From positions 41,858 to 105,857 of the forward strand of contig JAFQME010000008.1 in NCBI GenBank assembly GCA_017421025.1: a stretch of DNA of 64,000 nt, read 5' to 3'. The translations under genes were made by a program, and so were the position numbers. How positions within the stretch are numbered: position 1 is the stretch's first letter; the number at the start of each line of letters is the position of its first letter. Of the stretch, positions 1 to 53,234 are shown in pieces. The notes beneath the pieces were generated by a model that worked only from the letters and a program-made list of their open reading frames with translations, made no database searches and was not told the DNA's origin. The DNA is from Oscillospiraceae bacterium (GTDB lineage Bacteria > Bacillota > Clostridia > Oscillospirales > JAAYXM01).

Positions 1-282
1 CCAGTGATTCTTATTGGTGCTTTTTACCTCCACACCATAAAACCGATTCGCAACAATGTCAGGAAACGATGCCCCTGACACCAACTGGATGGTTCCTTCA
101 AAAGGGGTATGTATCGCACATCTTGCCAATGCATCGTAAACATCTTCTTCTAATTGTGTTCCGTTGCGGCCTTTGTAATATGCTTCTCGTCCCTTGGCTT
201 CCGCATTCAGCGTTGCATCGGTTTTTGCCATGAGTGCTTTGAACTCTTCTAATGGCGGTTTTTTGTTTTCAGATACGATCAC
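1..282 (-). CDS. Type II restriction endonuclease, PD-(D/E)XK family, 5' part (runs off the window)
   Basis: Not in the ORF track. Manual translation from GTG at 282 (after RBS GGAGGTG) gives MIVSENKKPPLEEFKALM...SFPDIVANRFYGVEVKSTNKNHW, containing a PD...EVK motif. It overlaps the MTase stop codon. Confidence 0.75.
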   Translation of the reverse strand, partial: MIVSENKKPPLEEFKALMAKTDATLNAEAKGREAYYKGRNGTQLEEDVYDALARCAIHTPFEGTIQLVSGASFPDIVANRFYGVEVKSTNKNHW

Positions 283-1723
283 CTGTATCACCTCCAAAAT
301 AAATCTCCCATAAAGTTTCAATACGTTTCGCAATGTGGAATCCTAGTAAGGGTGGGACGGCGTTCCCAATCAACTTATATGCTTCGGAAGCGGAAACTGA
401 GGTGTTTGATTGGCTGTTCCGAAAAACAAAATCATAACTGTCTGGAAATGTTTGGATCCGTGCACATTCTCTTATTGTTAATCTTCGTTCTCGTTTTCCG
501 CTTTTGAGTTCTTCTACATAATGACCACCATGTTCGATACTTAAACGGCGGAACTCAATGTTTCCATGGTGTTCCGAGCGGATGGTGGGACCGATGCTGT
601 CGAGCTTAATCTCGGTTTGTCCTTGGCAATGCTTTCCCATATATTTTGCTTTTGAATATTTCTGCTGTGAAACGTCAGCTGAGTTCTCTGGTTCATCTAG
701 ATCACAAAATGCTTGCCGAACTGTCACCGGTGGCAATAACATATTTCCGGGGTTATTGTAAGCGTGTGTAACAATCGGATAAGGATCATAATCTTCTGGA
801 ATCTGCGCCAAAGAGAGTGCTTTCAGTGCTTCCATGGTTAAAGCAGACTTCTTGAAACCAAAGAAAATCACACGTTCTCTCGATTGTGGTACACCATAAT
901 CGGCAGCATGCAGGACTCTTGCTGGGACGACAAGATAGCCATTCTCTGAAATTGTACTAAAATCATGTTCAATAATTGCCTTCACATCGCCGAGGTTTGC
1001 AAGACCTTTTACGTTCTCCGCAATAAACATTTTAGGTTGTGTGATGGCAATTACTTCACGCATCCACATGTATAATTGACCGCGGCTTTCGATACTGGGG
1101 GTGTCGGAGTCTGTAATTCTTTTTCCTGTATGACTCTTGTCTGAATCAAACCCTTGCCGTTTGCCGGCAATGGAAAAGTCCTGACAAGGGAAGCCGCCTG
1201 TAACAATGTCGATGTTTTGAGGGAATACAGAAATTCCATTTTCTTGATGTAGTTTTACCAAATCAACAATACTATCAAGATAATAGGTGGAAGCAGAAAT
1301 CCCTTTTTTGCCAAAATAATTCGTCCATGCAGCTTTGGCATCTTCTTTGATGTCGTTAGCAAAAACAGTATGGAATCTGTTTTTTGGAAGGCGAACCCAG
1401 TTTTCATCTATCTTCTGAACGTTCCAATGCTTGTTGATTGTTTTATTGACACATAACTTTAAAACTTCAAAATCACCTTCAAATCCCAAATCCATGCCAC
1501 CACAGCCGGAGAATAACGACAACACATTGATATTTGTTTTTCTTGTGTGGCTTTTGGTTTGTTTGCCTTGCCTTGCAGGTTTCGCTGTTGTTGAGGGGAT
1601 GAACCAAATACCGCTCTTTTTGACTGCACCATCTATACGCCCCTCGTTGCATAAAATTTGCACTCTGCGTGGGGTGATATTCCATTTTTTAGCTGCAGCT
1701 TGGACGGTAATCATCTCGTTCAT
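269..1723 (-). CDS. C5-cytosine DNA methyltransferase (M.BepI-like, probably CGCG) with an N-terminal excisionase-like HTH
   Basis: Motif I LFSGCGG, IV GGFPCQDFS, VI ENVKGL, VIII QSRERV, X IGNAVPP. The segment TIRSEHHGNIEFRRLS matches M.BepI as recalled. The first ~50 aa (AAKKWNITPRRVQILCNEGRIDGAVK-SGIWFIP) are HTH-like. Low GC. Confidence 0.92.
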   Translation of the reverse strand: MNEMITVQAAAKKWNITPRRVQILCNEGRIDGAVKKSGIWFIPSTTAKPARQGKQTKSHTRKTNINVLSLFSGCGGMDLGFEGDFEVLKLCVNKTINKHWNVQKIDENWVRLPKNRFHTVFANDIKEDAKAAWTNYFGKKGISASTYYLDSIVDLVKLHQENGISVFPQNIDIVTGGFPCQDFSIAGKRQGFDSDKSHTGKRITDSDTPSIESRGQLYMWMREVIAITQPKMFIAENVKGLANLGDVKAIIEHDFSTISENGYLVVPARVLHAADYGVPQSRERVIFFGFKKSALTMEALKALSLAQIPEDYDPYPIVTHAYNNPGNMLLPPVTVRQAFCDLDEPENSADVSQQKYSKAKYMGKHCQGQTEIKLDSIGPTIRSEHHGNIEFRRLSIEHGGHYVEELKSGKRERRLTIRECARIQTFPDSYDFVFRNSQSNTSVSASEAYKLIGNAVPPLLGFHIAKRIETLWEIYFGGDTGDRI

Positions 1724-29570: not shown

Positions 29571-29585
29571 GCTGTGTCCTCCTTG

Positions 29586-31745
29586 CTAGTTGATGAAGCG
29601 ATAGAGGAAGGTCACCACCTGTCCTCTTGTGCAAGTAGCATCGGGGGAGAAGGTGGTGGCACTCGTTCCCGAGGTAATGCCTTGCTCCACCGCCCAAAGC
29701 ACTGCGTCAGCGTAATACGCACCTGCGTCTACATCGGTAAACGGGTTGTTGACTTCCACTTTCGGCTGTCCTGCGGTACGCCATAAGAAGGTCACTACCT
29801 GTCCTCTTGTGCAAGCCAGATTCGGGGAGAACATGGTCGCACTCGTACCGCCCGTGATCTTACTGCCGTATGCCCAAAGGACCGGCTTGCAGTAGTACAT
29901 ACTCTGCGCCACATCGACAAACGGATTGGTGATCGCAGCAGGCTCGGGAGAACCCACCATGCGCCACAAGAAGGTTACCACCTGCCCACGGTTGCAGTTT
30001 TGATTCGGGGAGAAGGTGGTGGCACTCGTTCCCGAGGTGATGCCTTGCTCCACCGCCCAAAGCACGGGACGGTAGTAGTACGCACTTGCGTCCACATCGG
30101 TAAAGGCAACCGTTTGCTCGGGCTGTGTGGGCGTCTCCGGCACTTGCTCGGGCTGTGTGGGCGTTTCCGGCACTTGCTCGGGCTCGGTTTTTGCTTCCTC
30201 GGTTTTTTCAAAGGTGTAGCCAACAAAGAGACTCTCCTCATCCCCTGAAATGACGGAGGTGTTTTGGTTGATTGCGCCCGATACAAGCAGGTCGCCCGAG
30301 GAATCGGTGTCAAACCAATACCCATCAATGGGCTTTACCCGAATCGCAACGTAGTAATATTCGCCTGCTTGGAAGGTGTCGGTCGGTGCCATTTTCCGAG
30401 CATCGCCCACCCCTTCATACCAGGTGATGCCGTTTTTGGTGGAGTTTGGGTCGGGCGTGTCGATGTAATACAAGCCGTCCTCACGCTGATTTTCTGCGGT
30501 AAAGGACGGGGTTTCGCCCACAACCGGTTCTTTGATTTTGTATGAAACAACGCCTTTGATTCGCTCTTTTTCGGCGCCCAGGTTACCGTAATCCATGCGT
30601 GCGGAAAGGTTTCCCATGCCGTCATCGGATACCTGTCCCACAACGACACCGTTGAAGGTGACCACAACGTCGAAGGCTCCGGTACTTTTGCGGGCAAATT
30701 CATAGCCCTCTTTCGGCTTTAAGACCACTTCGAACATGTACTGCTTGTTCGAAGCAAAAACACCGGTGAAACGGTTGTTGTAGTCGTTGTTTTCATACCA
30801 CGAAGCCTGGATTCCCTCCACGCCCTCGCTGTACTTGAGGTATTGCTCCCGTGCGATGGACTGTCTGCCGATTTTCGGCGGAATCACGTCCGAGATGGAG
30901 ATTCTGGTGATTTTCTTTCCCACCGTCACGGCAGGGAAGGTGTAAGACACAACCACTCTCGCCCATCTCTGGTACTCAAAGTCCTTGCTGAGTTTGGCTT
31001 CCATACCGTTTAATGTGCCTTCCATCCGGTAGTCAGTGGCGGTGGAAGCAAAGGCATATCCGTCTTTCGCATCCAACCGAACGATTACGGTATAGACATG
31101 CCCCTCTTGGAAAGTCGCATTCATCGGCAAAAACTTCTTGTCGGTTTCGTCGTACCACTCAGCCAGACCGTTCACCGTGTACGGCTCATCGTCACCGACC
31201 ACTGCGCTGGAGTCCCATGTCTGCCCGGCAATCGGCGGTACAAGGTTGTAGACTGCCACCGTGTCAATGGGCGTTTGTGTGGAAGATTCCTGGTATTTGG
31301 GGAAGAAATAATTCTTTCGCACGGCAATCACGGTACGACCGCCCTTTACTGCGTCCTGCGGAGGAGCGATTGCCTCAACCGGGCTGCCGTTTAAGAACAC
31401 GTCCGCAAGCACGGTGGTCCGGTCAGAGGCGTACTTGAAGATGTTCTCGTCGATGGTTTTCAGCGCAATTCCCAGCACATATTCATGCCCTTCCTGAAAC
31501 ATATCGGAAGACTTGAGTTCTCTCTCTTGTGTCAGGTCGAACCAAACGATACCGCCCGGGACGTCGAGGGAATCGGAGTTGATCCGATAGCCATCACCGA
31601 CTGTGGCGGCAAACGAGGGATGTTCCCCCACTTTCGGGGCAGTAATCGTAATCTCCACTCGATCGAGTTCCACCGCAAATGCGATGGTGGGAAGAAGCCC
31701 CACCACAAGGGTGAGGCATAAAAGAATACTAAGTAGCTTTTTCAT
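29586..31745 (-). CDS. S-layer homology (3 x SLH) surface protein with four tandem Ig-like repeats
   Basis: Signal peptide; four ~125-aa repeats (P..G...W...F..G..Y...GY.F); PETPTQPEQ linker; FTDV..AYY..V.WA...IT.G...FSP...TRGQ. Confidence 0.88.
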   Translation of the reverse strand: MKKLLSILLCLTLVVGLLPTIAFAVELDRVEITITAPKVGEHPSFAATVGDGYRINSDSLDVPGGIVWFDLTQERELKSSDMFQEGHEYVLGIALKTIDENIFKYASDRTTVLADVFLNGSPVEAIAPPQDAVKGGRTVIAVRKNYFFPKYQESSTQTPIDTVAVYNLVPPIAGQTWDSSAVVGDDEPYTVNGLAEWYDETDKKFLPMNATFQEGHVYTVIVRLDAKDGYAFASTATDYRMEGTLNGMEAKLSKDFEYQRWARVVVSYTFPAVTVGKKITRISISDVIPPKIGRQSIAREQYLKYSEGVEGIQASWYENNDYNNRFTGVFASNKQYMFEVVLKPKEGYEFARKSTGAFDVVVTFNGVVVGQVSDDGMGNLSARMDYGNLGAEKERIKGVVSYKIKEPVVGETPSFTAENQREDGLYYIDTPDPNSTKNGITWYEGVGDARKMAPTDTFQAGEYYYVAIRVKPIDGYWFDTDSSGDLLVSGAINQNTSVISGDEESLFVGYTFEKTEEAKTEPEQVPETPTQPEQVPETPTQPEQTVAFTDVDASAYYYRPVLWAVEQGITSGTSATTFSPNQNCNRGQVVTFLWRMVGSPEPAAITNPFVDVAQSMYYCKPVLWAYGSKITGGTSATMFSPNLACTRGQVVTFLWRTAGQPKVEVNNPFTDVDAGAYYADAVLWAVEQGITSGTSATTFSPDATCTRGQVVTFLYRFIN
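30116..30184 (-). repeat. 30-bp coding tandem repeat (about 2.3 copies; EQVPETPTQP linker)
   Basis: GCTCGGGCTGTGTGGGCGTYTCCGGCACTT repeated on the + strand. Confidence 0.85.
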
Positions 31746-31757
31746 CAGATCCACTCC

Positions 31758-33089
31758 TTATTTTGCGTCGCTTTCGTCAAATACGTCGCCGCATTCCGGG
31801 CAGAATTTCGGGGGATTGTGCGGGTCTTCCGGGGTCCAGCCGCACTTGTCGCACTGATAGAGCGGTGCGCCTGCGGGCTTGGGTTTGCCACAGTTCTGGC
31901 AGAACTTGCCCTGGTTTACATTGCCGCACTCACAAGTCCAGCCTGCCGCCGCTGTCGGCTGCGGTTTTCCGCAGTTCTGGCAGAACTTGCCGGTGTTCTG
32001 TGTTCCACATTCGCAGGTCCAGCCGCCTTGTGCCGGAGCAGCACCGCCAACCGGCTGGCTCACCATGGTGTCCTGCGTGGTGTCGGCACCCTGCATAAAG
32101 CCTGACATACCACCCATCATATTACCTGCCATGCCCATGCCCATGAATCCTGCCATAGCACCGTTAGGATTAGCGGCAGCAGTTCCCATAGCCTGAGCGG
32201 TTGCACCCGCCATATGACCACGAAGCATATTTGCATCACGACCCATCGCAGTGGAGCGCTGGTACTCGGTGATTCTTGCTTCGTCCTCTTCGGTTGCGTT
32301 GACTGCAGATACGCCGAATTCCACGATTTCAACACCGCGGCGATCCCGCCATTTGGAGGAGAGGAGTGTGTTGAGTTCATCTGCAAGCTGCATGGTGTAA
32401 GCCGGGATCGCTGCATAGTAGATGTTATTTTGAGAAATCTTGAACATCGCAGGCTGAAGTGCGGTGAGAAGTTCGCTTTTTAACTGCCCGTCAATCTCGT
32501 CACGGGTGAACGCATATTCCACGTTTGCACACACGTTGGTGTAAAAGAGCATCGGGTTGGTGATGCGGTAGGAATACTCGCCGTGGCAGCGAATTTTGAT
32601 ATCGAGCGGGAAGCCGATTGCAGTATCCATGATACGGAAGGGGATGGGGGAGGGAGTGCCGTACTTGTTGCCCATGATTTCCTTGGTGTTGAAGAAATAC
32701 ACTCTCTGATCCTTTGCCGGCTCGCCGCCAAAGGTGAAACGCTTGCCGATTTCAGAAAAGCTCTTCTTGATGTTCTCGCCGAGGTTTCCGTAGAACAAAC
32801 TCGGCTCGGTGCCTGTGTCATATACAAATTCGCCCGGGTCTGCGCAGATGTCAACCACCTTGCCGGATTCCACAATCATCATGCACTGACCTTCGTTGAC
32901 ATTGATGATCGAGCCGTTGGAAATGATGTTGTCGGTTCCTTTCTTGTTGGAGGAACGCCCGCCGGTCCGCTTTTCGCCCTTTTGGACAAGGACGTCTGCA
33001 TCTAAGCTGTCGCAATAGAAATAATCTCTCCAAGAATCCGCCAAAACGCCACCCATTGCGCCAATGCCTGCTTTTAAGAGTCCCATCAT
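31758..33089 (-). CDS. SPFH/band-7 protein with C-terminal zinc ribbons (YdjI-like)
   Basis: IISNGSIINVNEGQ, GNKYGTPSP, AMAGFMGMGM, and three WxC.CG...KFC..CG ribbons. Confidence 0.88.
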   Translation of the reverse strand: MMGLLKAGIGAMGGVLADSWRDYFYCDSLDADVLVQKGEKRTGGRSSNKKGTDNIISNGSIINVNEGQCMMIVESGKVVDICADPGEFVYDTGTEPSLFYGNLGENIKKSFSEIGKRFTFGGEPAKDQRVYFFNTKEIMGNKYGTPSPIPFRIMDTAIGFPLDIKIRCHGEYSYRITNPMLFYTNVCANVEYAFTRDEIDGQLKSELLTALQPAMFKISQNNIYYAAIPAYTMQLADELNTLLSSKWRDRRGVEIVEFGVSAVNATEEDEARITEYQRSTAMGRDANMLRGHMAGATAQAMGTAAANPNGAMAGFMGMGMAGNMMGGMSGFMQGADTTQDTMVSQPVGGAAPAQGGWTCECGTQNTGKFCQNCGKPQPTAAAGWTCECGNVNQGKFCQNCGKPKPAGAPLYQCDKCGWTPEDPHNPPKFCPECGDVFDESDAK

Positions 33090-33638
33090 TTATTCTCCTT
33101 CCATGACTGTGTAATCTGTAATGTCCCAAACCTCAGGATTTGGAACAAGCTTTCCGTCTCCGCCGACTTGCGGAGAGAATTTATGTCCGCTTAAGTTCTG
33201 CTCTGTGCTGATTTCAATATTCGGATGTAAATCCGACAAGTTACATTTTACCGTAAAAGCCTCACCGTTGTAAACCGTGTGGGTTTCATTTGTGTCTAAA
33301 TTTGTGATGACAACATCTTCTTTGTAACGGGGAATGATGAGATACCATTCATCCCCCTCGTAGTCAATGTGCCCCACCTGCTCAATGGCGTGATCTCCAA
33401 GGGCTTCAAACATCCCTGCGACAGATGCATGTCTGGCATCCATTCTGTCGCCATATCCCAAAAACGCCACAGCAAACATCGGTTGAGTATCAAGGGAGTC
33501 AAAGTCCAATACATTGGCATATTCGGTGCGGTAGTCGGAATCCACATATACCATGCCCGGACCGTCAAGAACCGTCGGCTTGCAGCCGAAGAGCGCAAGC
33601 AGTGCGGTCAAAATCGCCATCAGTTTGAGTCCTTTCAT
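33090..33638 (-). CDS. Hypothetical lipoprotein
   Basis: Lipobox LFGC; GDEWYLIIPRY and CNLSDLHPN. Confidence 0.7.
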   Translation of the reverse strand: MKGLKLMAILTALLALFGCKPTVLDGPGMVYVDSDYRTEYANVLDFDSLDTQPMFAVAFLGYGDRMDARHASVAGMFEALGDHAIEQVGHIDYEGDEWYLIIPRYKEDVVITNLDTNETHTVYNGEAFTVKCNLSDLHPNIEISTEQNLSGHKFSPQVGGDGKLVPNPEVWDITDYTVMEGE

Positions 33639-33642
33639 GTTA

Positions 33643-35166
33643 TCACCCCGCATACAGTAAATTCTCAAAGCATTCTTCTTCCGGAATTCCGCCCACTTTG
33701 ACCGGGTAGCCCGAAGTGTCCACGGTCAGCCGTACCTCTTTGCCGTCCGGAAGCCGTGCTTCCACATAGGACTTCCCATCGGTACGGAGCGGGGAAAATT
33801 CTGTGCCGGACGGGATTTCGGTTTCTTCCTCCTCGGGGAGCAGCAACACCTTGAGCGGGAGCTTGGAGGTCACAGAATTGCCGCCCTCAAGGCTGAGTGC
33901 ACGGTCGGTCATCTCAGGAACTCCGCCTCCACCCACCTTGTAGTTTGCAACGCCTTGCCGTGTGCCCAAAAGCTGCAGTGTGGTGGACAGGGAAATCGCA
34001 TTCGGGTCATTGAGGAATGGGCGATAAACCACAAAATCCTCCGCAGAATCGCCAACCGCCTCGGAATCGGGCTGGGTGTGTCTGAGACGGGCAATCTCGG
34101 AGATCGTATCGCCCAACTTCAGTGCCACAAATTCATTGTAATCTCCGTCCGAATAGGAGGTCACATAGAGATAGAGGTCATTTCCCATGCATACCAGATA
34201 CTTGTCAAAGGAGTACGCATAATTGATCTCGTCCACATAGTGCGCCCCATTTACATCCACACTGAGCATCTCATACGACCCGTACGGGTCGGGCATCGTG
34301 CCGGAATGGACGGTGGTCTTGCCGTCAAAGAAAAATTCCATCTCATGGTCGGTTAAAATCTCAAGCGCATATGCACTTGGTGCCTGGGTCAACTCCTGCG
34401 GGAACAACTCAGGGGAGTCGGCGAAGAACACCTTTGCCGAAAGAAGCCCTGCCGCATATGCCGCAATCTCATACGGGGAAAACCAAAAAGTGATGCCCTG
34501 GTAATCAATCGTCCAGGAATAATCCTCGGGCGCATACTCCGAGAATGTACCCGAAAGATCGGAGAAAACAACGTCCTGATATTTCTCGTGGAGGATTCCC
34601 GCCAAAAGTTCGGGAAGCACAGCGGGGTCGGTTACCACTTGCTCAAGCTTCATCTCCTCGCCGGTGTTCGGGTCAAAGGTGTGTCCGGTGTAGGTGTAAT
34701 TCGGGTGCGCGCCGCCCTCGTAAACATACACCGCTTCCAGATAACTCACCGCACGGTTGTCCGCACGCTGGGGGATGATGTCTGCCTCGCCGTCCAGCGA
34801 CAACTCATCATGCCACTGTAAAAGCTCTTCCCTTGCGGAATTCAAATCAAACAGCAGCGCCTTTCCGTCCTTTGCCGCCTCGGTGTTGAGGGTTTGGAAG
34901 GTGCTTGCGAGTTTGGGGTATTTGTCCGCATCCCGGTCGGAAAGCTTCAGATTGTCCCAAACCACACGGCAATAGCCTTGCTCCCCGTGCGATTCTTCCA
35001 AAACCGAATCCCCCACCGAGAGGTGCAAGAACTCCAACGCATCGGGGTTGGCAGGCTCCTCCTGCGGTGCTTCAACCGTGGGTGTCTCGCTTGGCGGCAG
35101 GGAGACAAAGGAACAGCCGGAGAGCAGCAAACACCCTGTTAAGAGCAAACAAAAGAACCGTTTCAT
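33643..35166 (-). CDS. Lipoprotein with DUF3298/RsiV-like domain
   Basis: Lipobox LSGC; YEGGAHPNY..GHTFD..TGE and FSPYEIAAYAAG; start at ATG 35166. Confidence 0.78.
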   Translation of the reverse strand: MKRFFCLLLTGCLLLSGCSFVSLPPSETPTVEAPQEEPANPDALEFLHLSVGDSVLEESHGEQGYCRVVWDNLKLSDRDADKYPKLASTFQTLNTEAAKDGKALLFDLNSAREELLQWHDELSLDGEADIIPQRADNRAVSYLEAVYVYEGGAHPNYTYTGHTFDPNTGEEMKLEQVVTDPAVLPELLAGILHEKYQDVVFSDLSGTFSEYAPEDYSWTIDYQGITFWFSPYEIAAYAAGLLSAKVFFADSPELFPQELTQAPSAYALEILTDHEMEFFFDGKTTVHSGTMPDPYGSYEMLSVDVNGAHYVDEINYAYSFDKYLVCMGNDLYLYVTSYSDGDYNEFVALKLGDTISEIARLRHTQPDSEAVGDSAEDFVVYRPFLNDPNAISLSTTLQLLGTRQGVANYKVGGGGVPEMTDRALSLEGGNSVTSKLPLKVLLLPEEEETEIPSGTEFSPLRTDGKSYVEARLPDGKEVRLTVDTSGYPVKVGGIPEEECFENLLYAG

Positions 35167-35272
35167 ATGGATACCCCTTTCAAATTTGATTTGGAATTTC
35201 TTCTTCTCCAAACCCTCCGAACTTCGGAAGGCTTGGAGAAGAAGGGAGCAGTTTGCTCCCTTCCAAAGTTTT

Positions 35273-36226
35273 TTAGAAACCGCTGACCTTGAAGAGAACG
35301 ATTTCGTCGCCGGTAACACCGGTGCGGTACAGCTGTGCCAGTACCAGGAATCCGCCGTCAACCGGGGTCATTTCGTAAATCCACATGCTGTCGTCGGTGA
35401 TGCCGCAAAGTTCCTTTGCATCCGCTTCGCCGATGATGGAGCCGTCAGCATTCACAAAGGTCATCTGATTGACCGAGGAGGAAACATAGCCGTTTGCGGT
35501 CTTTGCGCAAGCGTTCGGCAAAGAGCCTGCCAAGGAACCGGTGGAGAGCATCAGGCGGTTACCCGAAAGGTCAAATGCACCCAGGATGTTGTTTTCTGCA
35601 TCCGCACCTGCGAGCAGGACGGTATCGCCGTTGATTTCGATGTTGGAGATGGATTCAAATGCGCCAATGCCTGCAGCACCTTCCAGCATCCAATCGGAAG
35701 CTGCGCCATCCTTGATTGCGGTGATGGTTTCGCGGCCGGTGAAGTAGGTGAGAGCGAAGTTTGCGGTCTTGGAAGCGGAGAGGTAGCCGCTTGCAACCGC
35801 TTCGCCGGTAGCACCGGTTGCCGGATCCACAACGGTTGCTTCAAACACGCCGCCGTCTACATAGAGTTTGCCGCTGTTGTCCACGCTGATTTCGTCGCCG
35901 GTGTCCTCAACAGAAATTGTCTTGTCAAAGGTGAGGGCATTTCCGCTCAAAGTGAAAACCTTGACTTCGGTGTCGCCGTTGGAGATGTAAACCTTGTCAC
36001 CCAAAACGTCCATATCCGGGTCGCCGGAAACGTCGAGGATGATCGGAGCATCAAACGGCAGGTATTCTGCGGTCAGGGTGTAGTTGCCGACCAAAACCGG
36101 AGCGGGAGTCGGAGCGATGGCTTCTCTCGGAACATCTTCCACAACCGGTTCTTCCACTTCTTTTTCACATGCTACAAGGGAAAATGCCATTACAAGTGCC
36201 AAAATGAGTGCCAAATACTTTTTCAT
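35273..36226 (-). CDS. Hypothetical beta-rich lipoprotein
   Basis: Lipobox LVAC; acidic and beta-strand rich (possible propeller). Confidence 0.75.
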   Translation of the reverse strand: MKKYLALILALVMAFSLVACEKEVEEPVVEDVPREAIAPTPAPVLVGNYTLTAEYLPFDAPIILDVSGDPDMDVLGDKVYISNGDTEVKVFTLSGNALTFDKTISVEDTGDEISVDNSGKLYVDGGVFEATVVDPATGATGEAVASGYLSASKTANFALTYFTGRETITAIKDGAASDWMLEGAAGIGAFESISNIEINGDTVLLAGADAENNILGAFDLSGNRLMLSTGSLAGSLPNACAKTANGYVSSSVNQMTFVNADGSIIGEADAKELCGITDDSMWIYEMTPVDGGFLVLAQLYRTGVTGDEIVLFKVSGF

Positions 36227-36253
36227 GATAAATCCTCCTAAATAGTTTGTTGA

Positions 36254-37012
36254 TTATTTCACGGATGCAAGAGCAGCGTCCGCCTTTGCGATCCATTCGG
36301 TTCTGTCGCCGTATTTTGCAGTATCCAGGATATCCATGGTTTCTTCTGCTTTGGTTTCATCCATGGTTCCGTCTTTGGCTGCTTTGAATGCGCCTGCAAT
36401 TGCTTTGGCAGCATCCATCTGATGTTTGAAGGTGTTCTTGATGTTTCCGAGTGTTTTCTGAATGCCGAACTGGGTGTCGAAATACTTCGCCATACTGTCA
36501 AAGTCTTTCGAACCTCTGATTTCCAAACGCACCTGATACATACCGGGTGTGTTCTGGAACATCAGAACACAGTAATGCTTGGTCTCTTCCTTGCCCTCGG
36601 AATTTTTAACCGTTTCGTAATCGTAATCGTAGCCGTACAAGTCAGCAAGACGATAGACACAGGCGAGGGTGGTTTTGCCGAAGATGAAAATTTTGTAGCG
36701 GTTTTCCGTAACTGCCACAAGTCCCGTGGAAGGAGAAACATACAGTTCACCGTTTCTTCCGAACCGTTTCAGCTTTTCCTCCTTCACCTTTGTTTTGGTC
36801 AGCGGTACGAAAATCTGATTCCACACTTTTGTACCGAACTCCACCTGCTCGATGTGAGAGGTGACCGAACTCAGTGTTGCCTCCACTTGGTTGAAGATTT
36901 TCAGACATTTCTTCGAGCAGACTTTACGGCAGATATAATTGCCGTCCGCCAGTTTTTGTTCGGAGATCAGACCTACTTCTGCTCCACAGATTGCACAGTT
37001 GTGCTTTGCCAT
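36254..37012 (-). CDS. Zinc-ribbon protein (DUF4428-like)
   Basis: N-terminal CAICG...KLADGNYICRKVC; RBS GGAGG. Confidence 0.7.
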   Translation of the reverse strand: MAKHNCAICGAEVGLISEQKLADGNYICRKVCSKKCLKIFNQVEATLSSVTSHIEQVEFGTKVWNQIFVPLTKTKVKEEKLKRFGRNGELYVSPSTGLVAVTENRYKIFIFGKTTLACVYRLADLYGYDYDYETVKNSEGKEETKHYCVLMFQNTPGMYQVRLEIRGSKDFDSMAKYFDTQFGIQKTLGNIKNTFKHQMDAAKAIAGAFKAAKDGTMDETKAEETMDILDTAKYGDRTEWIAKADAALASVK

Positions 37013-37032
37013 AATAAATTCCTCCTTAAGCG

Positions 37033-38385
37033 TTAGTTTACGATATCACTCGTGTCGATCACGTGATGGTCACGGTATCGAATCACGGTATCGCCGGATT
37101 GAGGACGGACCCCGTCCGTCATTGCAAAGACGATGCCCACATTGTCGCCTTTTTTTGCTTCCTCCAAAGCCTTTTCGAACATCTCAATGGATTCCACAGT
37201 CCCGAATGCAATGATCTTGCCGTTTCGTTCCACCGAAACCTTCTCGCCGACCTTCAGCCATCCGTCGGAGAGTCTGCCGGTGAGGGTCTGCTGGCCGTTA
37301 TCCCAAAGCGACTGTGCCACCGTCATGGAAAACGGTCCGAATACGCTTGCAGTGTCGGATGTGACGGTATTGCCTGCCGCATCGGTCACTGTGCAGGAAA
37401 TCGGCTGTCCCACAAGCACTCCGTCGGGAGTAAGCGAGATTGTGAGCGTGTCGGTGGTTGCACCGCTTACCGCATCGCTGTTTTCAATCACCACCGTGTC
37501 ACGGCGGCTGCGGTAACTCCATCGATAGGTGTACGGCTTGATTCCGCCTTCCACCAGAATCTTCAGAGAAACGTCGGAATACTCAGACGCTTCCAGACTC
37601 TCGGGCTGAGCCTGAATCACAAGCGGGGTGGTGGTGATTCCCGGCAGGGTGGGGGAACCCTGTACGACGGGCGTCTCAACGGTAGACGGCGGAACCACGA
37701 TGGAGGGATGACCGTTGATCTCAACATTGGGAAGATTGGGATCGATTTGCTCATGAATCATGGTGAACTTCACACGTTTTTCCTTGTTCATCATGCGAAT
37801 CAGAATGGTTGCCACTTCCGAGCGCTTGATGTTGGTGTTCGGCTTGCAGGTGTGGTTTTCGTCCACACCGGTCACAATGCCTGCACGGTAAAGCTTGTAT
37901 GCAACATCCCAAAACTCGCTGTCCTCCGGTACATCCGGAATGGTGCCATCCTCAATCCCGTTGATGACTTCGTATTCGCTCTCGGGCAGTGCGCTTGCAA
38001 ATACGGTCATAAACCAGGCACGGGTGGCGTAGTCGTTCATCACTTCCGGCTCAGCGCTCCCAATGTTGTTGGAAGCACAGTAGTCCACATACGGCTGATA
38101 CCAGGGAGTACCGTTTTTCAAGGTAATCTCGCCGGTCGTGTGCCGCTGATTCATGCAAGCCGCAAGCTTTAACACCTCGGCATGGGTGATGAAGTCGTTG
38201 GGGGCGTAGGTGGTTGTGGTCTTGCCGTTGATGAGCCCCATCTCCACTGCAGCAAGCACATCCTCGTAATACCACGCACCCTCGCTGACATCGGTAAACG
38301 GATTTTCAATCGGGTTTGCCGATGCGGTGCATACAAGGGAGCACAGCATCATCACGGCAAGGGTCAATGCGAAAAGTCGTTTCAT
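37033..38385 (-). CDS. SLH surface protein with an Ig domain and a C-terminal EF-Tu domain II-like barrel
   Basis: Signal peptide; SLH (FTDVSEGAWYY, KRSEVA); Ig (GGIKPYTYRW...CTVTDAAG); C-terminal TGRLSDGWLKVGEKV...SIEMFEKALEEAKKGDNVG. Confidence 0.8.
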   Translation of the reverse strand: MKRLFALTLAVMMLCSLVCTASANPIENPFTDVSEGAWYYEDVLAAVEMGLINGKTTTTYAPNDFITHAEVLKLAACMNQRHTTGEITLKNGTPWYQPYVDYCASNNIGSAEPEVMNDYATRAWFMTVFASALPESEYEVINGIEDGTIPDVPEDSEFWDVAYKLYRAGIVTGVDENHTCKPNTNIKRSEVATILIRMMNKEKRVKFTMIHEQIDPNLPNVEINGHPSIVVPPSTVETPVVQGSPTLPGITTTPLVIQAQPESLEASEYSDVSLKILVEGGIKPYTYRWSYRSRRDTVVIENSDAVSGATTDTLTISLTPDGVLVGQPISCTVTDAAGNTVTSDTASVFGPFSMTVAQSLWDNGQQTLTGRLSDGWLKVGEKVSVERNGKIIAFGTVESIEMFEKALEEAKKGDNVGIVFAMTDGVRPQSGDTVIRYRDHHVIDTSDIVN

Positions 38386-38405
38386 GGTGTTTTCTCCTCT
38401 CATCG

Positions 38406-39164
38406 TTAGAAACTGCCGCCTCTCCCGCCGTGGCTGCGGCCGGAAGAAGAGGTGTGTGACCCGGACTCGGATTTGGGTCGCTCGGTTTTCGTGACATGAG
38501 AATACAGGAACAAATCACGGGATGCGGTCATCTTCATATCGGTGACATAGTTTGCTGCCTCATCGTTTGCGTTTGCGGTCTTCATCTGCTTGAGTTTCTT
38601 GTGCATCTTGAGGAATGCAATGAGAAGCGGAAGAATCAGACAAAGCGCCAGGATGATCAACACGGTTTTCAGCGGCTTTTTGTTATACGGCGATCCCTGT
38701 GCCGCCATCTCCAAAAGCTCGTCTGCGGTTTCGATGTATGCCAAACACGCACCATAGTAGTCATCCTCGGAGAGATAGGGGAGTACCTTGCTCTCCAGGT
38801 AAACCAAACCGTTTGCGTTGAAGGCAACCTCGCCTTCTCCGTGTGTCGTGAAGTGATACTCACGGGTTTGTGAGCAAATGTAGAATAAAATTCCGTCGCT
38901 TTTTTCACCGCTGCCGTATCCCTGATAGTCGTAAATGTCATCCGCTGCAGCCTCAACCGAGTCCGCAGAATAGGAGTCCTCGGTGTAGATGACCACGTCA
39001 ACCCCGTATTTGCTGCGTACAGCTTCCAACTTCTCGGAAAGCTCTGTCAGTTCCGACTGCATGAGATACCCTGCATCGTCGGTGATCGGGGCGTTTGCAA
39101 ATGCGGAAGCCTGCAAGAACAGGAACACCAAAAGGAGAATGCTGCAAAGAATTCGTTTTTTCAT
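38406..39164 (-). CDS. TPM-domain membrane protein (YdjH-like)
   Basis: ITDDAGYL, DGILF, TM, and the typical tail DLFLYSHVTK...HTSSSGRSHGGRGGSF. Confidence 0.88.
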   Translation of the reverse strand: MKKRILCSILLLVFLFLQASAFANAPITDDAGYLMQSELTELSEKLEAVRSKYGVDVVIYTEDSYSADSVEAAADDIYDYQGYGSGEKSDGILFYICSQTREYHFTTHGEGEVAFNANGLVYLESKVLPYLSEDDYYGACLAYIETADELLEMAAQGSPYNKKPLKTVLIILALCLILPLLIAFLKMHKKLKQMKTANANDEAANYVTDMKMTASRDLFLYSHVTKTERPKSESGSHTSSSGRSHGGRGGSF

Positions 39165-39177
39165 GACCGTTCCTCCT

Positions 39178-40263
39178 TTAGTGCAGCAGCAGGAACGCAA
39201 TCACAGCCGCCACTGCATATCCGATTCCCGCAATTTTTGCGAAATACTTCCACTTTTTCTTGTTGTCCACCGGGAACTCGCCAACCACTTTTCCGGTCTG
39301 CCCGTTGATGGCAAATTTGTAAATCGTGTTGGCGTACTTGATGTTGAGCATCCAAACCGGGAGCAGGGAGTAGCGGATTTTGCCGCCGGAGAAACTCACA
39401 CGCTCGCTCTCCGGAATTACCACGTTGTAGCAGCCGGTGGTGTCGGAAAACGCTGCAATGGTGGAGTTTTTCACACGCTCGTTTGCACGCTCAATGCTCT
39501 CTTCTGCGGAAACGTCGTATTTGTCCGCCAAATACCCGGACAGGAACGCCGGGGAGAATTCCACCGCCGCCGAGTAGTCAAACGGCTCCACCGCCTCCAT
39601 GTACGCATCGTCCGCCTTTTTTGAGCCGTCCACCGGGATGTTTGCAAACCCGACACTGCCCGCACGGAACAAACGGAAGTAGTCGGTCTTGGTGTAGTTG
39701 TAATTGGCATCACTCCATGCGGTCACACGCTGTGCGTTGTAGGAAACCGCCGCATCACAGTTGCAGTCAAACATCCAGAAGGGGACATACACCCCCGACA
39801 TTTCCTCAATCTTCTTTTTGACCTTGAATTCATCGGGCAAAAACGGAGCGTTTTTGAACTCCGCTTCAAAGGCTGCCACTGCGGCTTTCTTATCCACCTG
39901 AAACGGGATGATGTAGTCAGGGCGCAAACCGCCTTCGAATTGCCCTTTCACAACGGTTGCCTGCCCGCAATAGGGACAGACCGTGCTGCCCAAGGTCTCG
40001 TCACCGGAAATCTCGGCGCCGCAGGACGGACAGGAGTAGCCGGCGAGGTTGAGTTCTCCCTCCGCCTCAAAACTGCGAGGGGTGTAGCTTTCCCAATCGT
40101 ATTTGGAAATGCCGCCTGCCGCCTCGTTTCCTTCCGCAAACTGCTGAACGGTTTCCAGCGGGAACGAATTCCCGCAAGACTCACAGACCAGCGTCTGGGT
40201 TTCCGCACCGAATACAAGCGGAGCGGTACAACAAGGACATCTGTAATTCTGGATGGTATCCAA
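39178..40263 (-). CDS. Zinc-ribbon membrane protein (YdjG-like)
   Basis: CPCC, CESCG, CPSCG and CPYCG; PDYIIPF, YVPFW, LPVW, INGQTGK; C-terminal TM; TTG start after AGGAGG. Confidence 0.85.
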   Translation of the reverse strand: MDTIQNYRCPCCTAPLVFGAETQTLVCESCGNSFPLETVQQFAEGNEAAGGISKYDWESYTPRSFEAEGELNLAGYSCPSCGAEISGDETLGSTVCPYCGQATVVKGQFEGGLRPDYIIPFQVDKKAAVAAFEAEFKNAPFLPDEFKVKKKIEEMSGVYVPFWMFDCNCDAAVSYNAQRVTAWSDANYNYTKTDYFRLFRAGSVGFANIPVDGSKKADDAYMEAVEPFDYSAAVEFSPAFLSGYLADKYDVSAEESIERANERVKNSTIAAFSDTTGCYNVVIPESERVSFSGGKIRYSLLPVWMLNIKYANTIYKFAINGQTGKVVGEFPVDNKKKWKYFAKIAGIGYAVAAVIAFLLLH

Positions 40264-40380
40264 AAGAATCCCTCCTCCTTTCGGGGTTGACCAAAAAATT
40301 CTCGCATGGTATAATTCTTATATATTATATTGTAGTGAATACTTAGGGAGAAGTCCCCACCCCCTCACTCTTTTTTTTGA

Positions 40381-40416
40381 AAAACGGGTGGGAAAACGGG
40401 TGGGAAAACGGGTGGG
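40381..40416 (+). repeat. Perfect 3 x 12-bp tandem repeat (AAAACGGGTGGG) in the divergent promoter region
   Basis: Exact copies at 40381, 40393 and 40405. Confidence 0.9.
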
Positions 40417-40442
40417 ACTGCTTCGGATAAAGGAGAGTTCGC

Positions 40443-41498
40443 ATGAAACGACGAGTCATACAGGGCATCCTTGCCGTGCTGTTGCTCGGCATGCTCTGCG
40501 GCTGTACCCAAATCGGGCAAAAAACAGCGAGTCTGTCCGTGATTTACATTGCGGCGGCAGTGCTTTCTCTGCTCTTGATGGTGGGCTACTGCGTGCTTGT
40601 AAAAAAGAAAGAAATCTGGATGCTGCTGCTGTTCGGTGCGGTGGTTGTGGTCAATCTCGGGTATGTGACCCTTGCGGTGTCCGAGACCTTGGAGCAGGCG
40701 CTGTGGGCAAACCGAATCGCCTATCTCGGCTCGGTGTTTCTGCCGCTGTCCATGCTGATGAGCATCCTCAATGTTACCCGTCTGAAATACCCCAAATGGT
40801 TGCCCGGTGTTTTGTTCTTCATCGCATTGGGCGTGTTCTGTCTTGCGGCAAGTCCGGGGTATCTCGATCTCTATTACAAATCCGTCACCCTCGAGAAGGT
40901 CGGCGGGGTCTCGGTGCTGTGTAAGGAATACGGCGCATGGCATCCGGTTTATCTCTTCTATCTGCTTGGGTATTTTGTCACTATGGTTGCGGCGATTCTC
41001 CATGCCATTGTCAAAAAGAAGCTTGAGTCTGTGGCGCACGCAGTTTTTTTGGCAGGTGCGGTGTTTGTCAATCTCGGTGTTTGGCTTTTGGGTCAGTTGG
41101 TGAAAATCGATTTCGAATTCCTTTCCGTTTCCTATCTCATCAGCGAGATGTTCCTCATCGGGTTGTATCTTATGCTGGAGTATCAGGAAAAACTCTTAGA
41201 GCGTGTCCGGTCCGACCAAAAGCCTGCGGTGCGGCACGTCGTTGCGCATGAAGATTCCCCGGAATATCAGGAGCGTTGCAACTATCTGCGGGACCATCTG
41301 CACACCCTCACTCCCTCGGAGCGTACGGTTTTTGAACTCTACTGCGCAGGCAAAACCAGCAAAGAAATCATGCAGGAACTCCATATTGCGGAAAATACCT
41401 TGAAGTATCACAATCGCAACCTGTATGGCAAACTCGGGGTTTCCTCCCGAAAGCAGCTTCTCGAATACGCCAAAGCCGTCGAGAAAACAAGAACATAG
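40443..41498 (+). CDS. Membrane-embedded (7TM) LuxR-family one-component regulator
   Basis: N-terminal lipobox-like LCGC; about 7 TMs; C-terminal LTPSERTVF...GKTSKEI..ELHIAENTLKYHNRNLYGKLGVSSR. Confidence 0.85.
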   Translation: MKRRVIQGILAVLLLGMLCGCTQIGQKTASLSVIYIAAAVLSLLLMVGYCVLVKKKEIWMLLLFGAVVVVNLGYVTLAVSETLEQALWANRIAYLGSVFLPLSMLMSILNVTRLKYPKWLPGVLFFIALGVFCLAASPGYLDLYYKSVTLEKVGGVSVLCKEYGAWHPVYLFYLLGYFVTMVAAILHAIVKKKLESVAHAVFLAGAVFVNLGVWLLGQLVKIDFEFLSVSYLISEMFLIGLYLMLEYQEKLLERVRSDQKPAVRHVVAHEDSPEYQERCNYLRDHLHTLTPSERTVFELYCAGKTSKEIMQELHIAENTLKYHNRNLYGKLGVSSRKQLLEYAKAVEKTRT

Positions 41499-53111: not shown

Positions 53112-53234
53112 GATAAAAACCTCCAAAATTTGCTTCATTTTACAGTCGGTGCTTGACCGACTCTTTGGGATATTATATAATAAAGTACAAGATTATACAA
53201 TAGTTTTTCATTTTTTTCCGAATGGAGCGAGTTT

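What the first reader, a model, noticed from the sequence alone, without database searches (positions are those of the whole stretch)
37033..38385. S-layer-anchored protein ending in an EF-Tu domain II-like barrel
Seen: a secreted SLH + Pro/Thr linker + Ig protein whose last ~90 aa (about 37075-37341) read PFSMTV...TLTGRLSDGWLKVGEKVSV...GTVESIEMFEKALEEAKKGDNVGIVF...SGDTV. Known: EF-Tu domain II reads PFLMPVEDVF..GTVATGRVERG.LKVGDEVEI...VTGIEMFRK.LDEA.AGDN.G.LL...RGQV, and the aminoacyl-end pocket residues (E. coli E259, M260, F261, N273) are retained here. Inference: a translation-factor domain without the GTPase has been recruited for surface display, as an adhesin, an extracellular RNA/aminoacyl binder, or a decoy for EF-Tu-binding toxins. 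The E. coli G257 position is Ser, the GE2270A-resistance substitution, which argues against a thiopeptide sponge.
Basis: partly seen in the sequence, partly recalled or inferred. Interest (0 to 1): 0.78.

Follow-up and report, generated by a model that had tools for sequence, protein, structure and literature searches.

The report
Cell-wall-anchored protein tipped with EF-Tu barrel
An uncultured gut bacterium anchors to its cell wall a secreted protein whose outer tip is a copy of one domain of the protein-synthesis factor EF-Tu, and relatives display two such domains, so a piece of the translation machinery has been taken over for a job outside the cell that is still unknown.

Summary
The CDS 37033-38385 (-) encodes a 450-aa protein: signal peptide, SLH wall anchor, disordered linker, Ig-like domain, then a C-terminal barrel. 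The barrel passes Pfam's cut-off for EF-Tu domain 2 (35.9 vs 30.3 bits). Its model superposes on EF-Tu domain II at 2.0-2.7 A over 87-91 columns.

It is not a tuf chimera. It shares no DNA with the rest of the genome and only 39% protein identity with the genome's own EF-Tu. Contigs from other samples bridge the junction.

It belongs to a family seen only in uncultured gut Clostridia: 269 relatives in a scan of 185,579 species genomes. Paralogues in related genomes carry EF-Tu domains 2 and 3 together, at about 40% identity to real EF-Tu. The recruited unit was therefore probably D2-D3, and the window's subfamily lost D3 and gained an invariant 14-residue tail.

In this subfamily the aminoacyl/thiopeptide pocket is degenerate: E259 survives in 6 of 121 sequences. 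Barrel and tail are nevertheless as conserved as the anchor.

Best reading: a conserved distal binding head with an unknown ligand. I found no paper on this architecture. Interest 0.6.

The parts
37033..38385 (-). CDS (450 aa plus stop) of the SLH-anchored protein with an EF-Tu domain II head
   Evidence: ORF list; translation; Pfam
38394..38400 (-). Ribosome-binding site AGAGGAG, 8 nt before ATG 38385. The upstream TPM gene's stop TAA lies at 38406-38408, so the gene is probably co-transcribed with it.
   Evidence: Sequence read; no terminator-like site on the minus strand between the genes
38317..38385 (-). Signal peptide, residues 1-23 (MKRLFALTLAVMMLCSLVCTASA, Ala-Ser-Ala before the predicted cut)
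   Evidence: Read from the sequence; helix 2-21 in the model; cleavage site inferred, no predictor run
37756..38301 (-). SLH wall-anchor region, residues 29-210 (three SLH-like repeats; Pfam sees two)
   Evidence: Pfam SLH 69.3 bits; Foldseek to the B. anthracis Sap SLH domain 3pyw, TMt 0.76 over 182 columns
37639..37755 (-). Pro/Thr/Val-rich flexible linker, residues 211-249
   Evidence: pLDDT below 50 for residues 213-247; mean pairwise identity 0.27 in the family
37351..37638 (-). Ig-like domain, residues 250-345 (motif GGIKPYTYRW)
   Evidence: Pfam Ig_3 E 0.0066, below cut-off; all-beta model with pLDDT above 90; Foldseek hits to Ig domains of phage N4 capsid, Dscam and titin
37078..37350 (-). 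EF-Tu domain II-type beta barrel, residues 346-436
   Evidence: Pfam PF03144 above cut-off; PDB phmmer; NCBIfam best match EF-Tu positions 202-280; Foldseek rmsd 2.0-2.7 A over 87-91 columns with 24-31% identity to EF-Tu; VIA-align Z 14.1 to EF-Tu
37036..37077 (-). Family-specific C-terminal tail, residues 437-450 (YRDHHVIDTSDIVN). D444, S446, D447 and N450 are invariant; Y437, H441 and T445 are at least 90% conserved.
   Evidence: Alignment A1; mean pairwise identity 0.72, the highest of any region; pLDDT 86 in the full-length model

Best explanation
The gene encodes a Sec-secreted surface protein. It is held on the cell wall by an N-terminal SLH module that binds pyruvylated wall polysaccharide. 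A flexible linker and an Ig-like spacer hold a domesticated EF-Tu domain II barrel at the outer tip.

The barrel descends from bacterial EF-Tu. A D2-D3 fragment without the GTPase was probably fused to an SLH/Ig scaffold in an ancestor of these gut Clostridia and then multiplied into paralogues. The window's subfamily lost D3 and acquired an invariant C-terminal tail.

How it works is inferred, not shown. The barrel plus tail is a conserved binding head for one conserved extracellular partner: a glycan or protein of the gut environment, or a component of the cell's own envelope. It uses a family-specific surface, not EF-Tu's aminoacyl-tRNA pocket.
For: SHOWN.

- Domain identity: Pfam, PDB sequence search, NCBIfam and two structure searches all agree. 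All top-50 VIA-align rows are domain II of translational GTPases or small stand-alone barrels of the same fold.
- Real gene: no DNA match elsewhere in the genome beyond 21 nt. Identity to the genome's own EF-Tu is 39% over 71 aa. Contigs of 3 runs cross the Ig/barrel junction without a difference, one of them from a sample not flagged as the source.
- Family: 552 proteins at E<=1e-3 among 8000 scored. Of the best 120, 109 carry SLH plus EF-Tu D2 in precomputed Pfam. A scan of 185,579 species genomes found 269 relatives; the 77 loci kept are all Clostridia MAGs.
- D2-D3 paralogues: PF03143 follows PF03144 in 6 of 97 paralogue C-termini. There are 21 SLH-type clusters with a D2-D3 module that matches NCBIfam EF-Tu over positions 202-392 of 394 at 124-128 bits, against 55 bits for EF-1alpha and 43 for SelB.
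- Tree: real EF-Tu forms one clade (100/100). D2-D3 forms sit next to it. The tail subfamily lies beyond a 100/99 branch.
- Anchoring context: about 30 SLH-bearing frames in the genome, and a glycosyltransferase-pyruvyl transferase fusion in the same window.
- Constraint: mean pairwise identity is 0.66 for the barrel and 0.72 for the tail, against 0.68 for SLH, 0.58 for Ig and 0.27 for the linker. Several positions are invariant in the family but differ from EF-Tu: R233 to D, E243 to S, A270 to K.

INFERRED. The binding role rests on the distal position of the barrel, the strength of constraint, the repeated reuse of the module in paralogues, and the reported adhesive moonlighting of whole EF-Tu. 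For that last point, fibronectin-binding regions are reported at the start of domain II and across most of domain III (PMC5593925, passages read).
Against: No ligand is known and no experiment exists on any member.

Strong conservation of the tip is unlike many adhesins, whose tips diversify. It would equally fit a structural or self-assembly role.

The barrel is acidic, like EF-Tu's own D2 (net charge -3), which gives no hint of a nucleic-acid or heparin-type site.

I had no model coordinates, so I could not tell whether the family-invariant residues form a surface patch or lie in the core. The tail may simply cap the face that D3 covers in EF-Tu: in VIA-align the model's residue 110 maps to EF-Tu residue 366 in D3, which is only a hint.

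The gene neighbourhood (Zn-ribbon membrane protein, TPM protein, DUF4428, SPFH) suggests envelope upkeep rather than host adhesion.
Confidence: 0.5

Rival explanations
1. Structural or self-assembly role. The barrel and tail bind no external ligand. They act as a stable cap, or as the contact through which copies of the protein pack into an S-layer-like coat, with the tail replacing the face that D3 covers in EF-Tu.
For: The tip is as conserved as the anchor, which is typical of lattice contacts. The invariant tail is modelled with confidence against the barrel (pLDDT 86). Its end maps onto a D3 residue of EF-Tu in one structural alignment (5i4q_C, model 11..110 on chain 209..366). The genome has many SLH proteins (about 30 frames).
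Against: One of about 30 SLH proteins in the genome is not obviously the lattice former. The same module occurs inside long multi-Ig proteins and together with D3, which fits a portable functional module better than a lattice contact. Self-association was not tested.
Confidence: 0.27
2. Retained EF-Tu chemistry outside the cell. The barrel binds an aminoacyl-adenosine-like ligand (aminoacyl-tRNA ends, RNA fragments), or acts as a sponge for antibiotics or toxins that target EF-Tu domain II.
For: This protein keeps E259, M260, F261, N273, T228 and G275. The D2-D3 paralogues keep nearly the whole pocket: E215 0.96, D216 0.87, F218 0.87, T228 0.87, E259 1.00, F261 1.00, N273 0.96, R288 0.96, G257 0.78, G275 1.00 of 23 sequences. 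They retain 23 of 39 EF-Tu-invariant D2 positions. A stand-alone domain II-like barrel, Pbp11, is reported to bind tRNA (PMC9540759, passages read).
Against: In the window's subfamily (121 sequences) E259 is kept in 6, F218 in 2%, T228 in 31%, E215 in 25% and R288 in none. For the GE2270A site, this protein keeps 5 of 12 contact residues; R223 is N and G257 is S (D in 93% of the subfamily). His66 of domain I, which I recall as closing the pocket, is absent by construction. Pbp11's tRNA binding depends on its own N-terminal tail, not on the barrel.
Confidence: 0.08
3. Artefact: an assembly chimera that joins an SLH gene to a tuf fragment, or a decaying pseudogene.
For: The genome is a 77%-complete metagenome bin, and its own tuf gene is cut at a contig end.
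Against: There is no DNA similarity to tuf or to anything else in the genome, and only 39% protein identity to the genome's own EF-Tu. The same architecture occurs in hundreds of proteins from many samples. Contigs X1, X2 and X3 bridge the junction with zero differences. The frame is intact, with a ribosome-binding site.
Confidence: 0.01

Closest known systems
Domain II of bacterial elongation factor Tu (Pfam GTP_EFTU_D2, PF03144)
   Same: Same six-stranded barrel: rmsd 2.0-2.7 A over 87-91 columns, 24-31% identity, Z 14.1. The signature stretch is shared: IEMFxKxLxEAxxGDNVG. Among GTPase families, EF-Tu is the best match.
   Different: There is no GTPase domain and no domain III. The protein is secreted and wall-anchored. 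Most aminoacyl-pocket residues are not conserved in the subfamily. It has a family-specific invariant tail and family-specific invariant residues.
Surface 'moonlighting' EF-Tu of Mycoplasma, Staphylococcus, lactobacilli and others
   Same: EF-Tu sequence is exposed on a bacterial surface. Reported binding regions include the start of domain II and most of domain III (PMC5593925).
   Different: Moonlighting EF-Tu is the whole cytosolic protein, has no signal sequence, and its export route is debated (PMC6822514). Here a separate gene encodes only D2 (D2-D3 in paralogues) behind a Sec signal and an SLH anchor. No binding has been shown for it.
Stand-alone domain II-like barrels: Pyrococcus abyssi Pbp11 (7ANU) and P. 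furiosus PF0907 (4PGO/1XE1)
   Same: A domain II-type barrel exists without a GTPase. VIA-align gives Z 12.8 to 4pgo_A and Z 11.7 to 7anu_B; Foldseek TMt is 0.79 and 0.72-0.74.
   Different: These are archaeal, cytosolic proteins of about 90 aa. Pbp11 binds tRNA through an N-terminal tail and binds the PAN proteasome. Sequence identity is only 22-24%. The window's barrel is more EF-Tu-like in sequence and is extracellular.
SLH-anchored surface proteins of Bacillota (for example B. anthracis Sap, SLH domain 3PYW)
   Same: An N-terminal signal peptide plus SLH module (TMt 0.76 to 3pyw), with a pyruvyl transferase gene in the genome.
   Different: The displayed head is a translation-factor barrel. 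I found no description of such a head in four literature searches.

Membership tests
Pfam GTP_EFTU_D2 (PF03144), translation-factor domain II barrel | Profile score at or above the curated gathering cut-off | tested here: met
   35.9 bits against 30.3 for the whole protein, and 40.4 bits for the last 105 aa. In relatives' C-termini, 45 of 97 match at E<=1e-4, several just under the cut-off.
Pfam GTP_EFTU_D2 (PF03144), translation-factor domain II barrel | Six-stranded barrel fold that superposes on domain II of solved factors | tested here: met
   Domain model pLDDT 88.6. Foldseek: 223 PDB chains at E<=1e-3, with EF-Tu at the top. VIA-align: 51 chains at Z>=8, all top rows domain II.
Elongation factor Tu proper (NCBIfam TIGR00485) | GTP-binding domain I (PF00009) | tested here: not met
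   No PF00009 match at E<=10. TIGR00485 scores 33.1 bits against a cut-off of 522.4, and only profile positions 202-280 are matched.
Elongation factor Tu proper (NCBIfam TIGR00485) | Domain III (PF03143) | tested here: not met
   No PF03143 match at E<=10 in this protein. In the window's own genome only the real EF-Tu has it. It is present in 6 of 97 paralogue C-termini elsewhere.
EF-Tu aminoacyl-tRNA acceptor-end site | Conservation of E215, D216, F218, T228, E259, F261, N273 and R288. The list is partly recalled; E259 and R288 are as cited in PMC9540759. | tested here: not met
   This protein keeps 4 of 8 (T228, E259, F261, N273). In the subfamily of 121 sequences: E259 0.05, F218 0.02, T228 0.31, E215 0.25, R288 0.
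GE2270A-type thiopeptide binding site of EF-Tu domain II | The twelve contact residues listed in PMC8183687: D216, G222, R223, T256, G257, E259, F261, R262, N273, V274, G275, L277 | tested here: not met
   5 of 12 are kept here (E259, F261, N273, V274, G275). R223 is N and G257 is S. In the subfamily G257 is D in 112 of 121.
SLH-anchored cell-surface proteins | SLH repeats above the Pfam cut-off, with the SLH fold | tested here: met
   69.3 bits against 20.8; 3pyw TMt 0.76.
SLH-anchored cell-surface proteins | N-terminal secretion signal | tested here: inconclusive
   A hydrophobic helix at residues 2-21 and Ala-Ser-Ala at 21-23 are seen in the sequence and the model. No signal-peptide predictor was available.
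SLH-anchored cell-surface proteins | The genome encodes a polysaccharide pyruvyl transferase (CsaB-type) to make the SLH ligand | tested here: met
   PF04230 scores 160 bits at window 53235-55454, fused to a glycosyltransferase and next to a Wzy_C gene. Its activity on wall polymer is inferred.
True S-layer (lattice-forming) proteins | Self-assembly into a two-dimensional array | not testable with these tools
   A two-copy complex prediction could not be run. Microscopy or in vitro assembly is needed.

The most novel reading that the evidence does not exclude
EF-Tu's long-disputed 'moonlighting' on bacterial surfaces has here been made a full-time, genetically hard-wired job. In a lineage of uncultured gut Clostridia a tuf-derived D2-D3 fragment acquired a Sec signal and an SLH anchor and spread into a paralogue family. 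The D2-D3 members still keep the aminoacyl/thiopeptide pocket and several tRNA-contact residues. They may therefore bind, outside the cell, a ligand that EF-Tu binds inside it, such as an EF-Tu-directed antibiotic or toxin or an RNA end. The window's D2-only branch has re-tooled the barrel for a new partner.
Probability: 0.25. Interest if true: 0.8.

Novelty: new variant of a known kind. Interest (0 to 1): 0.6.

Why it matters
Whether EF-Tu on bacterial surfaces does anything, or is only debris from lysed cells, has been argued for two decades. The review read says that EF-Tu lacks a signal sequence and that extracellular cytosolic proteins are often put down to lysis.

A natural family in which EF-Tu domains are exported by the Sec route, fixed to the wall and kept under strong purifying selection shows that these domains can hold a selectable extracellular function. 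It also supplies clean, GTPase-free constructs with which to look for the ligand.

The find is a clear case of a core translation domain recruited into a surface-protein toolkit. It marks an abundant, unstudied surface-protein family in herbivore-gut Clostridia.

Tried and rejected
- tuf chimera: rejected.
- Tail as a remnant of domain III. MAFFT placed the tail YRDHHVIDTSDIVN on EF-Tu's YRPQFYFRTTDVTG. hhalign of the 28-aa tail profile against EF-Tu D3 gave E 0.27 and probability 0.2%; against SLH-type D3 it gave E 0.044 with a different register. Not significant, so not claimed.
- Donor lineage of the EF-Tu fragment. The real EF-Tu sequences that best match the D2-D3 module come from several phyla at equal scores of 88-92 bits, and the trees are unrooted with 96 columns. 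No donor can be named.
- Net charge of the barrel does not separate the groups.
- RNA evidence: no RNA holder was listed among the 4 runs of one study. This says nothing about expression.
- Phage link: the viral structure library gave only giant-virus translation GTPases (13 hits at E<=1e-3).
- ESM Atlas: feature hits were all below 0.9, so leads only. They point to small stand-alone D2 proteins in Actinomycetota and Chloroflexota, which I did not follow.
- Self-association: a two-copy complex prediction of the barrel plus tail could not be run, so the question stays open.
- Earlier notes of this scan: three look-ups found nothing that bears on this gene.
- Literature on G257S: two searches found no open paper that names the mutation. 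That G257S confers GE2270A resistance is recalled, with Zuurmond et al. 2000 seen only as a reference in PMC8183687.
- Supplementary files of the papers were not seen. Those of PMC5593925 may map binding fragments more exactly.
Full report
WHAT IS THERE

The minus-strand ORF 37033..38403 most likely starts at ATG 38385. This start lies 8 nt after AGAGGAG and directly follows the stop of the upstream TPM-domain gene.

Pfam finds SLH at 69.3 bits (cut-off 20.8). It finds GTP_EFTU_D2 at 35.9 bits (cut-off 30.3) on residues 367-434, and 40.4 bits, E 4.1e-10, for the last 105 aa alone. Ig_3 is weak at 17.4 bits. There is no GTPase domain and no domain III, even at E<=10.

phmmer of the last 105 aa against all PDB sequences returned 89 sequences at E<=1. 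The 60 shown are all EF-Tu, EF-Tu fusions or EF-1alpha. The best has E 6.6e-8 and is aligned to EF-Tu residues 208-291. Among NCBIfam's translational GTPase models the best is EF-Tu, positions 202-280.

STRUCTURE

An AlphaFold2 model built on 69 of the 120 listed homologues has mean pLDDT 89.2. It shows a helical SLH region, a disordered linker (residues 213-247), an all-beta Ig-like domain and a C-terminal barrel with pLDDT 94-97. Foldseek with this model hits the B. anthracis Sap SLH domain (3pyw, TMt 0.76), many Ig domains and EF-Tu.

A separate model of residues 340-450 has pLDDT 88.6 and pTM 0.79. Foldseek gave 223 PDB chains at E<=1e-3. They are headed by EF-Tu domain II: 1d2e_A at rmsd 2.3 A over 87 columns and 30% identity, and 7vmc_A at 2.0 A over 90 columns. 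An exhaustive VIA-align run over 48,161 chains gave 51 chains at Z>=8. These include eRF3 14.6, EF-Tu 14.1, SelB 13.3 and the stand-alone barrels PF0907 12.8 and Pbp11 11.7. Every one of the 50 rows shown is a domain II or a small barrel of the same fold.

NOT AN ARTEFACT

- The 368 bases that encode the barrel match nothing else in the genome beyond 21 nt.
- The genome's own EF-Tu, which is cut at a contig end, is 39% identical over 71 aa.
- Contigs from three runs of one gut-metagenome study cover the Ig/barrel junction with no differences: X1 36956-38600, X2 36956-38054, X3 37136-37608. X3 is not flagged as a possible source of the assembly.
- Base composition shows no break.

THE FAMILY

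A search of 5.8 billion proteins gave 552 hits at E<=1e-3 among 8000 candidates scored. Of the best 120, 109 carry both SLH and EF-Tu D2 in precomputed Pfam. The few that are named are called 'S-layer homology domain-containing protein' or 'hypothetical protein', from Clostridia, Ruminococcaceae or Oscillospiraceae MAGs.

A scan of one genome for each of 185,579 species found 302 pattern matches, of which 269 encode a relative. The best 80 were kept as 77 loci. All 77 are Clostridia MAGs: Oscillospiraceae 15, Feifaniaceae 4, Acutalibacteraceae 3, and the rest unnamed at family rank. Many come from goat, sheep, buffalo or deer gut by their record titles.

At 50% clustering the barrel plus tail has only 18 representatives at E<=1e-10 among 1.84 billion proteins. 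The family is deep in copies but narrow in range.

THE WIDER PICTURE: D2-D3 PARALOGUES

I called the SLH-type ORFs in the 77 loci: 124 hits, of which 97 were complete and longer than 250 aa. I scanned their last 330 aa with Pfam.
- 36 end in the same barrel and tail as the window's protein.
- 45 of 97 match PF03144 at E<=1e-4.
- 6 of 97 carry PF03143 (EF-Tu domain III) directly after D2, five of them above its cut-off.
- In at least five long proteins the barrel is internal and followed by more Ig repeats.

A search with the D2-D3 part of one such protein (L077) found 21 SLH-type clusters. The other 99 of the 120 listed are genuine EF-Tu at 37-44% identity. NCBIfam matches that module to EF-Tu over positions 202-392 of 394 at 124-128 bits, against 55 for EF-1alpha and 43 for SelB.

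Mean barrel identities are 0.44 between D2-D3 forms and EF-Tu, 0.29 between the tail subfamily and EF-Tu, and 0.29 between the tail subfamily and D2-D3 forms.

I built trees of 71 thinned barrel sequences (quick search) and of 66 after dropping five very long rows (careful search). In these trees real EF-Tu is one clade (100/100). The D2-D3 forms lie next to it. The tail subfamily, together with other internal barrels, lies beyond a 100/99 branch. The trees are unrooted and use only 96 columns.

The simplest reading is one capture of a D2-D3 fragment of bacterial EF-Tu onto an SLH/Ig scaffold, followed by duplication, loss of D3 and divergence in the window's branch. No donor lineage can be named. 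The window's own genome holds only the D2-tail form.

WHAT THE RESIDUES SAY

I aligned 260 unique segments: 87 EF-Tu, 23 D2-D3 and 150 D2-only, of which 121 have the tail. Three mis-assembled EF-Tu entries, duplicates and pieces under 80 aa were left out.

Across the 121 subfamily members, however, E259 is kept in 6 (Q in 110), G257 is D in 112, F218 is kept in 2%, T228 in 31%, E215 in 25%, and R288 has no counterpart. M260, F261 and K263 are invariant and N273 is at 87%.

A review lists twelve GE2270A contact residues (PMC8183687, passage read). This protein keeps five of them and lacks R223, the partner of the R223-E259 salt bridge that locks the drug. The subfamily therefore does not preserve EF-Tu's acceptor-end or thiopeptide pocket.

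The D2-D3 paralogues do preserve it: E215 0.96, D216 0.87, F218 0.87, T228 0.87, E259 1.00, F261 1.00, N273 0.96, R288 0.96, G275 1.00, G257 0.78. Overall they keep 23 of 39 EF-Tu-invariant D2 positions and 17 of 50 D3 positions. Whether that reflects a retained ligand or only the needs of the fold cannot be settled without coordinates.

CONSTRAINT AND THE TAIL

Within the 69-sequence alignment, mean pairwise identity is 0.68 for SLH, 0.27 for the linker, 0.58 for Ig, 0.66 for the barrel and 0.72 for the last 14 residues.

Family-invariant positions include some that differ from EF-Tu: R233 to D374, E243 to S384 and A270 to K412. In the tail, D444, S446, D447 and the C-terminal N450 are invariant.

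The tail resembles a stretch of domain III by eye, but the profile comparison is not significant. In one structural alignment to EF-Tu domains 2-3 the model's residue 110 maps to residue 366 in D3. This hints that the tail lies where D3 would pack.

CONTEXT

The gene sits in a minus-strand run with no terminator-like site between its members:
- Zn-ribbon membrane protein;
- TPM-domain protein;
- this gene;
- DUF4428 protein;
- two lipoproteins, one with DUF3298;
- a 192-aa protein with no family match;
- an SPFH/Band_7_1 protein;
- another SLH protein;
- DUF6935.

A 7TM-LuxR regulator is encoded divergently.

The neighbourhood recurs. Of 25 complete tail-type genes with at least 3 kb upstream, 16 have the regulator, 13 the TPM gene and 13 the Zn-ribbon gene. 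Of 21 with at least 3 kb downstream, 10 have the 192-aa gene, 8 DUF6935, 8 DUF3298 and 5 SPFH.

The genome has 60 SLH repeat matches in about 30 frames. The window also holds a glycosyltransferase-pyruvyl transferase fusion next to a Wzy-type gene, which fits SLH anchoring to pyruvylated wall polymer.

MECHANISM

Shown: a Sec-type leader, an SLH anchor, a flexible stalk, and a distal EF-Tu-derived barrel under strong purifying selection.

Inferred, at about 0.5: the barrel and tail form a binding head for one conserved extracellular partner, through a family-specific surface. The main rival, at about 0.27, is a structural or self-assembly role. Retained EF-Tu chemistry (RNA end, aminoacyl ligand, antibiotic or toxin decoy) is unlikely for this subfamily, at about 0.08, but stays open for the D2-D3 paralogues.

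COMPARISON WITH WHAT IS KNOWN

- The barrel is a member of Pfam GTP_EFTU_D2. The protein is not an EF-Tu: it lacks domains I and III.
- Surface 'moonlighting' EF-Tu is the whole cytosolic protein without a signal sequence (PMC6822514, passages). Its reported fibronectin-binding regions lie at the start of domain II and across most of domain III (PMC5593925, passages).
- Pbp11 of Pyrococcus abyssi is a cytosolic stand-alone domain II-like barrel that binds tRNA through its own N-terminal tail (PMC9540759, abstract and passages).
- Four full-text searches for SLH or S-layer together with EF-Tu domain terms found no description of this architecture: searches gave zero papers, and one search gave six unrelated ones. 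Public databases do show the two Pfam domains side by side, so the architecture is visible but undescribed.

VERDICT

The finding is real and correctly read at domain level. It is a new variant of a known kind: an SLH surface protein with an unprecedented head. The added finding is that EF-Tu D2-D3 modules are a recurrent surface module in this lineage. The function is unknown, and experiments are needed.

Noticed in passing
L060:972-1961 and L060:2771-3760; L068:167-1156 and L068:7093-8082; L077:1070-2059; L084:2143-3132; proteins P0121-P0141: SLH-anchored paralogues in related Clostridia MAGs carry EF-Tu domains 2 and 3 together, at about 40% identity to real EF-Tu. They keep almost the whole aminoacyl/thiopeptide pocket. 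In some (P0134, P0141) the module is internal and followed by more Ig repeats.
   Followed up: partly
window 29073-41498: A conserved envelope gene neighbourhood recurs around family members in many MAGs: 7TM-LuxR regulator (divergent), Zn-ribbon membrane protein, TPM-domain protein, the SLH gene(s), DUF4428, DUF3298 lipoprotein, a 192-aa unknown protein, SPFH/Band_7_1 and DUF6935. Its function is unknown.
   Followed up: partly
alignment A1, relatives such as L045:839-1828: Most family members have an extra segment of about 45 residues, rich in Cys and His, between the signal peptide and the SLH region (consensus HxHxL...HYxECxxC...CTVCGH). It looks like a small zinc-binding module. It is absent from the window's protein.
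   Followed up: no
L023:1869-2858, L025:6788-7777, L030:6756-7745, L064:2693-3682 and similar: Large SLH/Ig paralogues of about 800 aa sit just upstream of the D2-tail gene in many loci. They end in a different conserved C-terminal motif (…S.D.MIVIMP/IVILG). By BLAST and the tree they also contain an internal, very divergent D2-like barrel.
   Followed up: no
window 51035-56604: A wall-polysaccharide cluster: a Wzy_C polymerase/ligase-like gene, a 739-aa fusion of two glycosyltransferase domains with a polysaccharide pyruvyl transferase (53235-55454), and a further glycosyltransferase. It probably makes the pyruvylated polymer that SLH domains bind.
   Followed up: partly
window 45649-47814 (+) and 29586-31754 (-): Two further SLH proteins with the anchor at the C-terminus. 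One carries three Listeria-Bacteroides (Flg_new) repeats. The genome as a whole has about 30 SLH-bearing frames in 1.5 Mb.
   Followed up: no
P0142, P0143, P0144: Public EF-Tu entries of 458-522 aa with internal duplicated blocks. They look like assembly artefacts in the protein collection and were left out of the alignments.
   Followed up: no
(ESM Atlas), clusters of 89-104 aa: Small stand-alone proteins annotated with EF-Tu domain 2 form clusters of 81-260 members in Actinomycetota, Chloroflexota and Bacillota. They may be further GTPase-free uses of the barrel, or fragments.
   Followed up: no
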